Assembly: GCA_000002445.1 (NCBI GenBank)
Contig: CM000207.1
Coordinates: forward strand, 96,001-160,000
Source: Trypanosoma brucei
Taxonomy: Eukaryota
Direction of reading: 5' to 3'
Length of the DNA: 64,000 nucleotides
Positions 9,001 to 15,000 of this stretch are shown one piece after another. The position numbers are program-made. The number at the start of each line of letters is the position of its first letter. Position 1 is the first letter of the stretch.

Positions 9001-12000
9001 AGGGGAGAAGGCAGTAGCTTACGCGGCACTAGCAGCAAGCGCAGCAGTAAAACTACAGGCCGCGGAACAAAACCTGCAAAGCAATCTGGACGCCCTCCTC
9101 AAAGGCGCGGCAGCGGCCGCCGAACTCACGGCCACAGAAGAACTTGTATCAGAGGCAGCGGACCTTTCTTTAGAAGCAAGGTCAGGGGCGCGGACATCAA
9201 CTGCATCGGGGACGCAGGGCGGTCTACCACTGAGGTTCGCAAGGTTCGGCGGTGGGAAGAGCAAATGCGACACAGCCAAGGAGGCAGCCGATCAGAGAAA
9301 AGCGGCTCCGGGAACCAAAGGCGGCGACAAAATCTCGTTCGCCCACCTGCAAAACCGACCAAAAATAGGCAACGACAAAAAGCTAGCTGCACTGTGCGGC
9401 GACGACAATACACCGCCTAACAACTGCGACGGAAGCGCGGACGCCGACCTGACCTACTTCGAAATAACAACTGGGACCCTACTCACAGAAAAGATGAAGC
9501 AGTACAACAAAGGACCCCAACCCACAGATGGATACACACCAGACACGCCGGAGCCGACAGCCTTACTGCCGAGGGAAACTTACGTAACTGGCCGGCTCAA
9601 CATTATAAAGCAAGCAGGACATGCGTACGACAGCATAACCTTTACAGCAGACAGCTTAAAAAACTCTGCGCTGGTGACGGACGGCACAACACAAGCTCTG
9701 CTAGAAACGACATTGCTCACACAAAAGGAGCGCGAACAAACCGATATACGACAAAATAAATTAGAGGAAATAACGGCCCGCTTGTATGGCAAAGCGGGCA
9801 CAGACGTCAAGGCGCGCATATGGGAGCCAATTGAAATAATACCGATACAAGCGGAAGCTACAGAAGACAACAAAGCCACAGAGCTAAAGCACCTCACAGA
9901 CATAGGCAAACTCAGACGGGCAGCAGCTTTTTACTTAGCCAAGCAAGCCACAAAAGCCGAAACTGCAGCAGTGCAGAAGGCAACGGAATCCACGGAAAAA
10001 ACAGAGAGAGCAAAAACAACAGAAAATAGGAAATATGGGGATAAAAAAGATGAGGTTTGCAAAGCCACTGACGAAAAAGATTGCGACAAAAACAAATGCG
10101 AATGGAATAAGGAAAAGAATGAGTGCAAAGTTAAAGAAAGTGCTTTTATTATTTCTGTATCAATTAAGGCGATTCTTCTGCTCAAATATTTTGGTTTTAG
10201 TGTGAAATATTTAATATTTTTTCAAATAAACTCTATAAAATTGATAGGGTTTTTTGATTTTGAGAGAATCTTATATTTTGAAAGATTATGGTAAAATCTG
10301 ATATATAATAATTCTTTTGAAAATTTCAAAAATTCAGTGAAAATGTAAATGATAGTGGCGTATAGGTGTATAAATATATGGCGATAAGAAATAAAATATA
10401 TCACTTTTTTATTATGTTTATTTTATGGTTATTAGTTAGGGTTATAATGCCAATAGTAAAAAATGATCATTATAGGAAAGTATTTGAGTATGTATATACT
10501 AATATTTTATTAAAAACGTTTGTGAAAATCAAAAGTTGTGTTACATATAAGCTCTTAATATAATGCCAAGCGTACGACGAGAGTAAGTGACTGTGATGGA
10601 AAATGAGAAATGAAGATGAAATATACGCATTTTGAAGCACACAAATAAATATTGCTGTTATCATGCACAAATATAATGATGAAAGGGACATAGGGGGAGA
10701 TGCAGAATTCATAGTATAACTCAAATTTTTCTACTATGGCATCCGCAGAGGCACGGACAGCAGAACACAAAAATTAGGAAAGAAAATATGGAGTGGAACA
10801 ACCTGATATTCCTAAATCACGGCAAATTTTAAAAGAAACATCAGGAATACCAATTCCAATTATCCTCCGTGCTTTGCTCAAAAATAGATAAATGATACCG
10901 TAGAAATTCTAGTAGAAACAACAGTATTAGTAGTTCATAAAGCAATGGTGATGAAAGGCCTGTACTCAAACCTATTTTGGTGATAAGTGACAGAGGATAC
11001 TAGTAGCATTCTTTGTAAAATGCGAACGCAGTACTGTATCTAGCCACTTAAATCCCATATTGACATATATAAATAGAAAATGTGAGTACATGGAACAGTA
11101 GATTACATGTAGTGCTCAGAAACACTATGTGTATTATGACCTAATTCTTGAAGAAAAACAATATGAAAAATAAGTTTGGCAAACTGAGTACACATCCTTC
11201 AAAAGATGTATCATAAAAATATAAAGGAATTACTTATATGCATAAACAAAAAATCCTTAGATAGACATCTTAGAGAAGAAAATGACTAATTTCCTTTACA
11301 TTTTTATGTCTTTTTTACAACTCCATCAAATTTTTAGAGATAGGTTTTGGAATGAACTTTTGTACCTTAAAAGTTTCATTATTGCCGCTGCTATTGCATT
11401 TCATGTGTTTAAGATTAATATCCCTTCAAGATTACGAAAAAATAACAAGCAAATATAATAAATAATGATACTAAGAAACAAAATGTGCTTCTGGTTGTTG
11501 TTCAAACTCATGCAACACAAAGATGGTTTAGGTTAATATTGAGTGCTAAACTAAGCCATGTTGAAATTATTACAATTGTGATGGGAGGTTTGTATAACCA
11601 TATTAAAAGATCTGGATAGGTTGTACAATATTGATAAAGGCATAATGCAACTGATGAGGATATTGTAATTCATTTGGACGGGTCTGATGCTATTTTTTTT
11701 GATCGTCATAAAAATGAGATTGATGTAGAGTATTTTATATATGATAATGCAAATATAGAACAGAATATTTACAAAGAGCATGTGGAGAGATTCTATTGAT
11801 TTTTTAATGTAGGTTACAGAAAACGGAAGTATAAAAAGTTACCTCATTTACTGAAATCACCTCCTAGCGGAAAACCTTATCTTAGTGGTGGTGAGTTAAT
11901 AGCAAGAGTTTGGGAAAATTATAAATTTAATATGCATTTGGGAATTATTAAATGGAAGAGAGGAATTGTAGTCAGATCAGATAATTTACAAATTTTTCAT

Positions 12001-15000
12001 GATTTGTACTGAAATTAAAGAAGAAGCTGTTGTACAGAGATTTGTTTTGAGGAAGGGAGTGAGTACATTATATTATAAATAGAGATTCTTTTCCATTTCA
12101 AATAGTGAAGAAATCGGAGAGGCACCATTCATACATTTTACAGGATAGCCAATTGCGTAGGAACGGAAAGAAAAGTTGGTTTTGAAATATCTTATTTGTT
12201 ATAGAGAGCTGGAAAAGAGGAAGTTTGATGCTGAATATTTGGATAAAATTGAAACTTATGTAGTCAGTTGAGATAAATGGGGTTTTAAAGATGGAGAGAT
12301 TGTGGTGAGTCATACAAATGAGGGGATTTGTTTAAGTCCGAGAAACTATAAACAACAGCAATATTCTGAGCTCAACAAGTTAGATGCAGCTAAACTGCGC
12401 AAATACCTGCAACTAGAAACGTAAAATAGTCAGCTCTGTCTACCGAACTCATGTCAAACAGCTAGCCAGCCAGCATCCAGAACTCACTCACCTAACGATG
12501 CACGTGCCCTCACAAGAAGACCGCCGCAGGCAAACATCTTTTCGGCAGCAATTGGCGCAAACCTCCATCGCAAACAGAGACGAGAAAATGGCGGTCGAAA
12601 AAACTGGCCGTGCGAACGAAAGACGTAGCCCCCTTCAAGACCCACGGCACCTGAATATTAGCAGCAAAGCAACATACTTACACAGCCGACCCGACTCGAG
12701 GTTGCAGCGAAACAAACATGAGCAGCCGCTGCAACTAAATTCAAATCCCAGAAAATACCACACCCTAATAGCAAAGCCGACTCCGCGTGTAGCTCCTCAC
12801 CAATATTTTAAAGTCGTTTTTTGACACCACATGCGATTCAATGTTTAATTCAAGGAAGAAACAAGAATTTACTCATAATGAAAATAACAACACGGACCCT
12901 AGGAGTTTCAGGAATATTCTTTTGCCTATTGGAGCTCTAAGGGCAGGCAACGTCTGTGAGCTTGAAAATGCACAACAGTTCAATAACTTATTCAAGCTAA
13001 TGAGACTTCCTGAGGCCGATATTACACTAGATGTGGCGGCTGACTCAGCAGACAGCTTGTACCAAGAAATGTTACAGCTGAACATGTCAGTAGCCGACGA
13101 CCACTGGAAAAATCAGATGGCAGTAGCGCAGAAAGGTAAGACAGCGACTGACATAGCCAAAAACGTTTCGCTGCAAGTCAAAGACATAGATGGCACATGG
13201 ACAACACACAGGGACAAATGGGTAGACACTTACGCCGCAATCAAAGACGATAGCAAAACGCCACAGAAAATAAAGCAAGCGAGCCTGAAAAGCCACTCAG
13301 CTCATCAAAAAGCAGCAGCTGAGATAGCCATAAGGCAGCTGGTGCACAAAGCAGCCATCTACAAAAGTGAACTCGACAAGCTGAAAGCCACAACAGAAAA
13401 AGTAACAGCAGAACAAGCCAAAAGCAGTTTATGGAGGTGACGGTGCAGCACCGTGGTACGACACTGCTCGAGCGTGGAGCAGCTACACCCAGACAAGATC
13501 AAACGACTGTACAGAAGCAAAGGCAACGACCGCAGCGGCAACCCTGCTATGTATATGCGCCAAGGACAACAACGGCGACAACACAGAACCTTGCATTCGG
13601 ACTCAGTCAGCAAGCAACACCTGGACATCGGGCAGCACGACAAACCTAAAAACCGCGTTTGACGAGATATTAGCACACTGCCCGAAAATAAAGACAATCA
13701 AACTGACACCGGAATTTCTAGAGCAAATAGCAGCGGACCTCCGGTATGACATCAAAATAATTTCTGGTGCAGGTTATTTTGGGGCATTCAGCGCAAACAA
13801 CTGCGGCGGCCGCAGCAAACAAGGCCTGTGCGTCAAGTACAGCGGCTACACAGCAGACCCAACGACGCACAACAAAAAGTTACCTTGGGTTGATGACATA
13901 GAGGCACTGACAGCTGAACTGCGCGAGCAGCGGCAGGCCATCACCGACTTCAACCGACTTCATGAAGCACTCAAAACAACACGTCAATCTGCTTTTGCAA
14001 TAACAACCATCATGGCTGGCTACAAACCGCCGGCAGCTGCAGAGGCAGAAAAACATATTCCGACGGAAACAAGTAACAAGAGAGTCCAAACGGAAAAAGA
14101 GTGCAATAAGATAGACAAAGACACAGATTGCACAGCAACCCCAAAATGCAAATGGGATACCAAAGAAAAGGATGAGAAAAAAAGGTGCACATTGAGTGAG
14201 GAAGGCAAAAAGGAAGTACAGCAGGCAGCAGAAAGAGCAGAAGAACCACAAACTGGGTGTGCAAAACACGGAACCGATAAGACAGCTTGTAAAAATGACA
14301 AAACAGGCGACAAGCAGAATTATGCATTAAGATAGTCCAAAAATGATGAAGAGGACAAAGAAACAGAGAAATGCCGAAATAGTATCTTTCTTGTAAACAA
14401 GAAAATTGCCTTGATGGTTTTTGCTTTTATGAGTTTGTTAGCATTTTAGCATTTTAAAACTCTAGGAATTTTTATTCAATTTTTGAAAATTTGTAAAATT
14501 TAATATATCGAGAGAATATGCCAAAATCTGCTAAAATTTAATTTACTTTACTCTCTTTTTGATGAAAATGTGCGAATTAGTGAAAGCTTTGTAAATATAT
14601 AAAATTTAACATTTTATTGAAATGTGTATGGTAGGTTCATATGGCTGCAAAACAGTAAGCTAATAGGGTGTAAGAAATGGGTACTGTATTAATTTGTTTA
14701 TTTTGGTTATTTTGTATATTTTATGGATATTTTTTTTGTGTTATAGTAGTAATGGTATCCCTATAGGGGTGTGTGGTGAGCGTGCATATACTAATATTAT
14801 TTAAATGTGGACGTGAAAACTAAATTTCAGGTTATAATAGAGGGAGTTAAATGATAATAATTGTGTAACTGAAGTGAATGAACACGATATAGAGATGGCT
14901 CAAAGAATATTTTTAGTAGGAAGGAAAAAAGACAAAGGGAAACGATATGAAGATTCGCAGTTTTGACCAAAATAGTGACAATGATTGCAATCGCCATACA

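What the first reader, a model, noticed from the sequence alone, without database searches (positions are those of the whole stretch)
11480..12320. Second GT-like relic family: a ~0.75-kb element with HLDGSD and YxSGGG motifs, in 3 dispersed copies, always between a 70-bp repeat and the next VSG
The copies at 11480-12320, 36385-37120 and 49255-49995 share >75% identity by eye. Their translations contain IHLDG(S/P)DAI (compare Fringe HVDDDNYV) and KLPHLLKSPPS.KPY.SGGGLIARVW.FKKFEYAFGELLKG (compare the GT31 YxSGGG motif). They are therefore a different glycosyltransferase-like pseudogene family from 47911-48902. They co-amplified with VSG cassettes and occupy the same position in each, within the co-transposed region upstream of the VSG.
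Basis: partly seen in the sequence, partly recalled or inferred. Interest (0 to 1): 0.55.

Follow-up and report, generated by a model that had tools for sequence, protein, structure and literature searches.

The report
Dead ESAG3 glucosyltransferase copies beside VSGs
The repeated element is a decayed copy of ESAG3, a well-known Trypanosoma brucei gene recently reported to add glucose to the parasite's coat protein; such dead copies are already known to litter the silent coat-gene arrays, so the finding is real but ordinary.

Summary
The repeat is real. All are pseudogenes of ESAG3 (Fam53) in a T. brucei VSG array: 41-64% aa identity to expression-site ESAG3, with 4-5 frameshifts, 3-10 in-frame stops and internal deletions in each large copy. 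Copies 1 and 2 share four stops and a deletion, so they were duplicated when already dead.

[quoted passage not shown] A 2026 preprint reports ESAG3 as a Mn2+-dependent GT-A O-glucosyltransferase of class B VSGs. My own profile and fold searches agree, and both find LH3/PLOD3 as the closest relative. The GT31/Fringe assignment fails every test; the neighbouring relic at 47905-48899 is the GT31-like one.

The three listed copies do lie between a 70-bp repeat and the next VSG; the fragment does not. ESAG3 in VSG arrays, and ESAG3 pseudogenes 3' of 70-bp repeats in expression sites, are already published. Verdict: already known, low interest. All three large relics precede class B VSGs (chance about 0.08), an untested lead.

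The parts
11352..12348 (+). ESAG3 pseudogene copy 1 (ESAG3 residues 1-368; 5 frameshifts, 10 in-frame stops, internal deletion within about residues 136-176)
   Evidence: tblastn and frameshift-aware alignment to P0001; 196/368 residues identical
11671..11688 (+). HLDGSD in copy 1: relic of the DXXD metal-binding motif (ESAG3 D110/D113), still intact in this copy
   Evidence: residue role from the preprint; aligns with the LH3 DSYD motif
11878..11895 (+). YLSGGE in copy 1: relic of the glycine loop (G215 kept, G216 changed to E)
   Evidence: aligns with LH3 FLNSGGFIG (second stretch)
36256..37259 (+). ESAG3 pseudogene copy 2 (residues 1-367; 4 frameshifts, 7 stops; all catalytic residues kept; shares stops at codons 90, 95, 96, 184 and the internal deletion with copy 1)
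49237..49989 (+). ESAG3 pseudogene copy 3 (residues 41 to about 316; 5 frameshifts, 3-4 stops; D110N, G111stop, G215D; 5' and 3' truncated)
17590..17781 (+).
10408..10533 (+). Degenerate 70-bp repeat upstream of copy 1
   Evidence: blastn matches to the 70-bp repeats at 35256-35358, 39702-39747, 52136-52187 and 19634-19709
35256..35421 (+). 70-bp repeat upstream of copy 2
47129..47229 (+). 70-bp repeat upstream of the Galactosyl_T-like relic and copy 3
12793..14332 (+). Class B VSG pseudogene immediately downstream of copy 1
   Evidence: Pfam VSG_B E 3e-57
37814..39334 (+). Intact class B VSG ORF (506 aa) downstream of copy 2
   Evidence: Pfam VSG_B E 5e-71 and Trypan_glycop_C E 8e-17
50365..51889 (+). 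Class B VSG pseudogene downstream of copy 3
   Evidence: Pfam VSG_B E 1.6e-32; Trypan_glycop_C E 3.5e-5
47905..48899 (+). Separate relic: UDP-Gal/UDP-GlcNAc-dependent glycosyltransferase (Galactosyl_T-like) pseudogene between the 70-bp repeat and copy 3
   Evidence: Pfam Galactosyl_T E 0.0045, below cut-off; 65-80% identity to T. brucei hexosyltransferases, one of which carries PF01762

Best explanation
The element is a non-functional, decayed copy of ESAG3 (expression site-associated gene 3, family Fam53) in a silent subtelomeric VSG array of Trypanosoma brucei. A 2026 preprint reports that the live gene encodes an ER-resident, Mn2+-dependent, retaining UDP-glucose:protein O-glucosyltransferase with a GT-A fold, closest to the LH3/PLOD3 glucosyltransferase domain, which puts the first glucose on Ser/Thr of class B VSGs. 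The copies here cannot make that enzyme. Each large copy carries 4-5 frameshifts, 3-10 in-frame stops and an internal deletion. They are passengers: dead DNA sitting in the stretch between the 70-bp repeat and the VSG, duplicated and diverging together with the array. Copies 1 and 2 descend from one copy that was already dead. Because they lie 3' of the 70-bp repeat, they would be copied into an expression site whenever a gene conversion starts in that repeat. That last step is inferred, not shown here.
For: Identity: the stitched translation hits only the ESAG3 cluster (E 2.7e-104, 60% identity, 100% coverage). All four relics match expression-site ESAG3 proteins best, at 41-64% aa identity, whereas GRESAG3-type relatives are about 30% identical to ESAG3. 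Dead: lesion counts come from the frameshift-aware alignment. Shared ancestry as a pseudogene: copies 1 and 2 share stops at ESAG3 codons 90, 95, 96 and 184, a 45/45-identical stretch spanning three of them, and the same internal deletion; copy 3 lacks these. Near-neutral drift: differences by codon position are 33/37/56, 49/43/62 and 38/32/64, only a 1.3-1.8-fold third-position excess. Enzyme nature of the parent: preprint 10.64898/2026.01.27.701950. Independent support: D110, D113, G215 and Q245 are invariant in 15 family members; the family profile hits only LH3/PLOD3 in the PDB, E 1.7e-6, aligned through DXXD and the Gly loop; an AlphaFold2 model (pLDDT 86.7) gives LH3/PLOD3 as its top 10 Foldseek hits, E 6e-9. 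Setting: 70-bp repeats, VSG_A and VSG_B genes and ESAG1 identify a T. brucei VSG array. Prior knowledge: ESAG3 is described as lying in VSG arrays with most subtelomeric copies pseudogenes (PMC3607257; PMC6152948; PMC4766357). An 'ESAG3 pseudogene 3' of 70-bp repeat' is listed for expression sites BES7 and BES15 (PMC2567434). 70-bp repeats provide the upstream homology for conversion (PMC4858185).
Against: The passive-passenger reading is inferred from decay, not shown; no expression or recombination data were available. Third codon positions differ somewhat more than first and second (p 0.027 and 0.002 for two pairs). So part of the divergence may predate inactivation, or reflect conversion from live ESAG3 genes, or come from bias in the protein-guided alignment. 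The ESAG3 body is much better conserved between copies (71-79%) than the adjoining spacers, which show weak or no similarity. Simple co-duplication followed by uniform neutral drift does not predict that. The enzymatic function of ESAG3 rests on one preprint.
Confidence: 0.88

Rival explanations
1. One reading: a relic of a GT31/Fringe-type (beta-1,3) glycosyltransferase, forming a new second GT-like pseudogene family.
For: An acidic motif (HLDGSD) and a glycine-rich motif (YLSGGG) are present. Both are catalytic motifs of a DXD-type GT-A enzyme, as they are in GT31 enzymes.
Against: No Pfam Galactosyl_T or Fringe hit appears at E<=10 for the relic translations or for intact ESAG3. hhalign of the ESAG3 family against the trypanosome Galactosyl_T-like family gives probability 0.28% over 17 columns outside the motifs. 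The fold search returns LH3/PLOD3 and mimivirus R699, with no GT31 or Fringe chain in the top 50. The element is the already named ESAG3.
Confidence: 0.02
2. The relics are kept because they are useful. They would act as blocks of homology with the ESAG3 genes of expression sites, guiding or extending recombination between array cassettes and expression sites.
For: Hertz-Fowler et al. 2008 note that frequent recombination breakpoints in expression sites coincide with ESAG3 loci and that ESAG3 copies do not cluster by position (PMC2567434). The ESAG3 body is better conserved between copies than the flanking spacers. All four relics have the same orientation as the VSGs and lie directly 5' of one.
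Against: Identity to live ESAG3 is only 41-64% at protein level, and 71-79% between relics at DNA level, which is low for efficient homologous recombination. Only 4 of about 16 cassettes in the window carry a relic. Truncations and deletions differ between copies. No direct test was possible.
Confidence: 0.08
3. The copies are functional ESAG3 or GRESAG3 genes, and the apparent lesions are sequencing or assembly errors or are bypassed.
For: Copy 2 keeps all the catalytic residues examined, and copy 1 keeps most of them.
Against: Each large copy has 4-5 frameshifts, 3-10 stops and a deletion of about 30 codons that removes family-invariant C162. Four stops are shared by two copies 25 kb apart, which random sequencing errors would not produce.
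Confidence: 0.01

Closest known systems
ESAG3 (expression site-associated gene 3; Fam53) pseudogenes of T. brucei subtelomeric VSG arrays and expression sites
   Same: Homologous along the whole ESAG3 length and closest to expression-site ESAG3 proteins. Pseudogenised. Located in a VSG array. Positioned 3' of a 70-bp repeat, as described for BES7 and BES15 (PMC2567434). Most subtelomeric ESAG3 copies are described as pseudogenes (PMC6152948).
   Different: Nothing of substance. These copies are more diverged (41-64% aa identity) than the expression-site genes are from one another (one cluster at 90% identity).
LH3/PLOD3 glucosyltransferase (GT) domain, Pfam GT_PLOD PF25342, and mimivirus R699
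   Same: GT-A fold. The DXXD metal motif and the N-S/G-G-G loop align. Best fold match, E 6e-9. Uses UDP-glucose and Mn2+ according to the preprint.
   Different: Only about 16% identity. The Pfam score of 16.5 bits is below the gathering cut-off of 27. The reported acceptor is Ser/Thr of VSG rather than galactosyl-hydroxylysine of collagen. The reported 18-subunit ring has no counterpart in LH3 (preprint).
GT31/Fringe-type galactosyltransferases (Pfam Galactosyl_T PF01762, Fringe PF02434) and the T. brucei UDP-Gal/UDP-GlcNAc-dependent glycosyltransferase family
   Same: Both are DXD-type GT-A enzymes, and relics of both occur in the same cassette (47905-48899 and 49237-49989).
   Different: No sequence, profile or nearest-fold relationship to ESAG3 was found. 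The relic at 47905-48899 belongs to this family, not the element under study.

Membership tests
ESAG3 sensu stricto (Fam53) | Full-length sequence homology to expression-site ESAG3 proteins | tested here: met
   E 2.7e-104, 60% identity, 100% query coverage to the ESAG3 cluster. tblastn and frameshift-aware alignment cover residues 1-368, 1-367, 41 to about 316, and 306-368.
ESAG3 sensu stricto (Fam53) | Closer to ESAG3 than to the divergent GRESAG3 lineage | tested here: met
   For each of the three large copies the six best blastx matches are all ESAG3-cluster members, at 51-64% identity; for fragment c4 five of six are (39-42%), the sixth being P0016, a 187-aa fragment 54% identical to ESAG3. 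GRESAG3-type representatives are 28-35% identical to ESAG3.
ESAG3 sensu stricto (Fam53) | Intact ORF of about 368 aa able to encode the enzyme | tested here: not met
   4-5 frameshifts, 3-10 stops and internal deletions per large copy. They are pseudogenes of the family, not functional members.
ESAG3 sensu stricto (Fam53) | Located in T. brucei expression sites or subtelomeric VSG arrays | tested here: met
   The window holds about 13 70-bp repeat sites, A- and B-type VSGs, and ESAG1.
GT-A fold, LH3/PLOD-like glucosyltransferase (applies to the parent gene) | DXXD metal-binding motif and glycine loop conserved | tested here: met
   D110, D113, G215 and Q245 are invariant in 15 family members and align to LH3 DSYD and NSGG. 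In the relics these are kept in copies 1 and 2 (G216E in copy 1) and lost in copy 3 (D110N, G111stop, G215D).
GT-A fold, LH3/PLOD-like glucosyltransferase (applies to the parent gene) | Three-dimensional fold matches LH3 GT domain | tested here: met
   AF2 model pLDDT 86.7, pTM 0.84. Foldseek top 10 hits are LH3/PLOD3, E 6e-9 to 2e-7, with TM 0.67 normalised to the isolated GT domain 6wfv.
GT-A fold, LH3/PLOD-like glucosyltransferase (applies to the parent gene) | Passes Pfam GT_PLOD (PF25342) gathering score | tested here: not met
   16.5 bits against a cut-off of 27, E 0.005. The family profile against PDB sequences reaches E 1.7e-6. ESAG3 is a distant relative, not a Pfam-defined member.
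GT-A fold, LH3/PLOD-like glucosyltransferase (applies to the parent gene) | UDP-glucose and Mn2+-dependent transferase activity | not testable with these tools
   Reported only in bioRxiv 10.64898/2026.01.27.701950.
GT31 / Fringe | Match to Pfam Galactosyl_T (PF01762) or Fringe (PF02434) | tested here: not met
   No hit at E<=10 for the two stitched translations or for intact ESAG3 and its relatives.
GT31 / Fringe | Catalytic motifs align with the family in a profile alignment | tested here: not met
   hhalign of the ESAG3 family against the trypanosome Galactosyl_T-like family gives probability 0.28%, E 0.22, over 17 columns away from both motifs. No GT31 or Fringe chain is among the top 50 fold matches.
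VSG cassette co-transposed region | Lies between the 70-bp repeat and the VSG start, on the same strand | tested here: met
   True for copies 1-3. Not true for the fourth fragment at 17590-17781, which has no 70-bp repeat between it and the preceding VSG pseudogene.
VSG cassette co-transposed region | Is actually copied with the VSG during gene conversion | not testable with these tools
   Indirect support only: ESAG3 pseudogenes 3' of the 70-bp repeats in BES7 and BES15 (PMC2567434).

The most novel reading that the evidence does not exclude
ESAG3 relics might mark class B VSG cassettes specifically. All three large relics in this window sit directly 5' of class B VSGs, the class that ESAG3 is reported to O-glucosylate. 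This could be the trace of an old physical linkage between the enzyme gene and its substrate genes, with ESAG3 once travelling alongside B-type VSGs. With 7 B-type VSGs among about 15 in the window, three out of three has a chance probability of about 0.08. The fourth fragment follows a B-type VSG but precedes one that Pfam could not class. So this is not significant and may be coincidence.
Probability: 0.08. Interest if true: 0.5.

Novelty: already known. Interest (0 to 1): 0.13.

Why it matters
It matters little as a discovery. ESAG3 pseudogenes are a described component of T. brucei VSG arrays, and some expression sites carry them 3' of the 70-bp repeats. The case does show that reading motifs from raw sequence can recover the correct enzyme class: a DXD-type glycosyltransferase, for a gene whose function was described as unknown in 2016 (PMC4766357) and reported only in a 2026 preprint. 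It also shows that the same reading can pick the wrong family. The only open thread is whether array ESAG3 relics associate with class B VSGs, the enzyme's reported substrates. That would bear on how the enzyme gene came to be linked to VSG expression.

Tried and rejected
- Pfam and PDB sequence searches with the stitched pseudogene translations found nothing, even at E<=10. Signal appeared only with intact ESAG3 and a family profile.
- My first reading was that copy 1 lacked an upstream 70-bp repeat, because the core-motif search and the first blastn missed it. I rejected this after one search found a degenerate repeat at 10408-10533.
- Exact-protein look-ups for five proteins (four intact window VSGs and P0064), meant to locate the source contig or other T. 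brucei loci, all found nothing. A genome-wide count of copies and a test of association were therefore not possible.
- The phage, plasmid, E. coli, bacterial genome and metagenome collections were not searched, because they are irrelevant to a trypanosome sequence.
I used joined open segments instead.
- I considered simple co-duplication of whole cassettes and found it insufficient. Homology between units is limited to the ESAG3 body, a weak patch of about 430 bp upstream in copies 1 and 2, the 70-bp repeats and the VSG 3' ends.

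
Full report
**The observation.** MAFFT gives 77% mean column identity. Pairwise blastn gives 78.6% (c1-c2, 663 bp, E 1e-156), 76.2% (c2-c3, 660 bp) and 70.7% (c1-c3, 744 bp). The quoted peptide motifs are present in the conceptual translations. The reading frame can be followed only by jumping between frames and across stops, so these are pseudogenes.

**Identity.** A translation stitched from the best-preserved pieces matched nothing in Pfam or in the PDB sequences, even at E<=10. 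In the 5.8-billion-protein collection it matched a single cluster: a 368-aa Trypanosoma brucei protein, E 2.7e-104, 60% identity, full coverage. Most members of that cluster are named expression site-associated gene 3, ESAG3. tblastn and a frameshift-aware protein-to-DNA alignment to intact ESAG3 redefine the copies as follows:
- c1, 11352-12348: residues 1-368, 5 frameshifts, 10 stops.
- c2, 36256-37259: residues 1-367, 4 frameshifts, 7 stops.
- c3, 49237-49989: residues 41 to about 316, 5 frameshifts, 3-4 stops.
- c4, 17590-17781: a fourth, unlisted fragment covering residues 306-368.

For each of the three large copies the six best protein matches are all expression-site ESAG3 members, at 51-64% identity; for c4 five of six are, at 39-42%. 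The divergent GRESAG3-type relatives found by exhaustive HMMER are only 28-35% identical to ESAG3. The copies therefore belong to ESAG3 proper.

**History of the copies.** c1 and c2 share in-frame stops at ESAG3 codons 90, 95, 96 and 184. A 45-base stretch spanning three of these stops is identical in the two copies. They also share an internal deletion that removes the family-invariant C162. c3 has none of these lesions and carries its own. So c1 and c2 descend from a copy that was already dead. Differences between copies are spread over the codon positions as 33/37/56, 49/43/62 and 38/32/64. That is only a 1.3-1.8-fold excess at third positions, close to neutral drift. The small excess could mean some early constraint, conversion from live genes, or bias from the protein-guided alignment.

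**Setting.** The window is a T. brucei silent VSG array. It holds 70-bp repeats at about 13 sites, A-type and B-type VSG genes and pseudogenes on the + strand, VSG 3'-UTR 16-mers, and an intact ESAG1 ORF on the - strand. The layouts around the relics are:
- 70-bp repeat (10408-10533, degenerate), 819 bp, c1, 445 bp, VSG_B pseudogene (12793-14332).
- 70-bp repeat (to 35421), 835 bp, c2, 555 bp, intact VSG_B (37814-39334).
- 70-bp repeat (to 47229), Galactosyl_T-like relic (47905-48899), c3, VSG_B pseudogene (50365-51889).

I first thought c1 was an exception and corrected that. The fragment c4 is a real exception: it lies 60 bp after a truncated VSG_B pseudogene (16156-17529) and 180 bp before another VSG (17960-19466), with no 70-bp repeat between. 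Outside the ESAG3 body, the units share only the 70-bp repeats, the VSG 3' ends, and a weak colinear patch of about 430 bp upstream in c1 and c2 (10904-11335 against 35825-36240). The spacers between ESAG3 and the VSG are not detectably homologous. 'Co-amplified with the cassette' is thus only partly supported.

**The glycosyltransferase idea.** A 2026 bioRxiv preprint (10.64898/2026.01.27.701950) reports that ESAG3 is an ER-resident, Mn2+-dependent, UDP-glucose-specific, retaining O-glucosyltransferase required for O-glucosylation of the class B VSG3. It reports a GT-A fold closest to LH3/PLOD3, an 18-subunit ring, and these catalytic residues: DXXD (D110/D113), G215-G216, E244/Q245 and H297. 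In ESAG3, HLDGSD is residues 108-113 and YLSGGG is residues 211-216.

I tested this independently of the preprint:
- Intact ESAG3 gives only sub-threshold signals, and all point to LH3: phmmer against PDB sequences E 0.029, and Pfam GT_PLOD at 16.5 bits against a cut-off of 27.
- A 15-member family alignment has D110, D113, G215 and Q245 invariant.
- The profile from that alignment hits only LH3/PLOD3 in the PDB, E 1.7e-6. The alignment runs through DXXD, and a second weak stretch pairs the LNGGG loop with LH3 FLNSGG.
- An AlphaFold2 model (pLDDT 86.7, pTM 0.84) returns LH3/PLOD3 as its ten best Foldseek matches (E 6e-9 to 2e-7), then mimivirus R699, then generic GT-A and nucleotidyltransferase folds.

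**The GT31/Fringe assignment fails.** No Galactosyl_T or Fringe hit appears at E<=10. No GT31 or Fringe chain appears in the top 50 fold matches. Profile-profile comparison of the ESAG3 family with the trypanosome Galactosyl_T-like family gives probability 0.28% over 17 columns that do not include the motifs. The GT31-like relic is the neighbour at 47905-48899. It is 65-80% identical to T. brucei 'UDP-Gal or UDP-GlcNAc-dependent glycosyltransferase' and hexosyltransferase proteins, one of which passes Pfam Galactosyl_T.

**State of the motifs in the relics.** c2 keeps all nine positions examined. c1 has G216E and E244D. c3 has D110N, a stop at G111, and G215D. None of this matters functionally, given the frameshifts and stops.

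**How it works.** The parent gene's product glucosylates VSGs (preprint). The copies in this window are inert DNA. They sit in the interval that lies 3' of the 70-bp repeat, and 70-bp repeats supply the upstream homology for duplicative VSG conversion (PMC4858185). I therefore infer that these relics are carried along whenever the cassette is duplicated within arrays or copied into an expression site. That inference fits Hertz-Fowler et al. 2008, who list an 'ESAG3 pseudogene 3' of 70-bp repeat' in BES7 and two in BES15 (PMC2567434). A rival reading is that the relics are retained as recombination homology. The same paper raises it for expression-site ESAG3 loci, and the ESAG3 body is better conserved than its flanks. 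Against it, the identities are low and only 4 of about 16 cassettes carry a relic.

**What is already known.**
- ESAG3 'is also in VSG arrays' (PMC3607257).
[quoted passage not shown] - The enzyme function and the LH3 resemblance are in the 2026 preprint.

The finding is therefore already known, and its label should change from 'GT31-like relic family' to 'ESAG3 pseudogenes'.

**Residual lead.** ESAG3's reported substrates are class B VSGs, and all three large relics precede class B VSGs. The window has 7 B-type VSGs among about 15, so three out of three has a chance probability of about 0.08. The fragment c4 follows a B-type pseudogene but precedes a VSG that Pfam could not class. This is not significant and needs a genome-wide count. 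I could not make that count, because no T. brucei assembly was reachable.

Noticed in passing
It starts 60 bp after a VSG_B pseudogene whose C-terminal domain is cut short (16156-17529) and ends 180 bp before another VSG (17960-19466), with no 70-bp repeat between. This looks like an old recombination junction.
   Followed up: partly
window 47905-48899: The 'first GT family' relic is a pseudogene of the T. brucei UDP-Gal/UDP-GlcNAc-dependent glycosyltransferase family (65-80% identity, with a KADDDIF DXD motif). It gives a weak Pfam Galactosyl_T hit, and a relative passes that Pfam cut-off. It lies in the same cassette as ESAG3 copy 3.
   Followed up: partly
window 61848-62930 (- strand): An intact 360-aa ORF matching Pfam ESAG1 (E 1.8e-115), on the strand opposite to all the VSGs, at the edge of the array.
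   Followed up: partly
window 55600-61800: A stretch of about 6 kb after the last 70-bp repeat holds no recognisable VSG but several short Cys/His-rich open segments (for example 58986-59600). Pfam gives only a zf-BED hint at E 0.04. It could be a decayed retroelement or another non-VSG insert.
   Followed up: partly
window 42000-44000: The AT skew reverses (-0.21 against +0.1 to +0.38 elsewhere), there is a T-rich 22-bp tandem repeat at 42846-42916, and no ORF exceeds 95 aa. This is an unexplained insert between VSG 40246-41913 and the 70-bp repeat at 44046.
   Followed up: no
window 8783-10294 and the other VSG 3' ends: The conserved VSG 3'-UTR 16-mer was found (at up to 2 mismatches) at only 10 sites, none of them between 7054 and 26597. 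The 503-aa VSG ORF at 8783-10294 runs on into an atypical C-terminal tail with no 16-mer after it. Several cassettes in the first third of the window therefore seem to lack normal 3' ends.
   Followed up: no
window 34720-35135: An orphan VSG C-terminal coding fragment with its own 16-mer (35120) lies downstream of a VSG that already has a 16-mer at 33729, just before the 70-bp repeat that precedes ESAG3 copy 2.
   Followed up: no
window 12793-14332, 37814-39334, 50365-51889: All three large ESAG3 relics precede class B VSGs, the class that ESAG3 is reported to O-glucosylate. With 7 B-type among about 15 VSGs in the window, the chance probability is about 0.08.
   Followed up: partly
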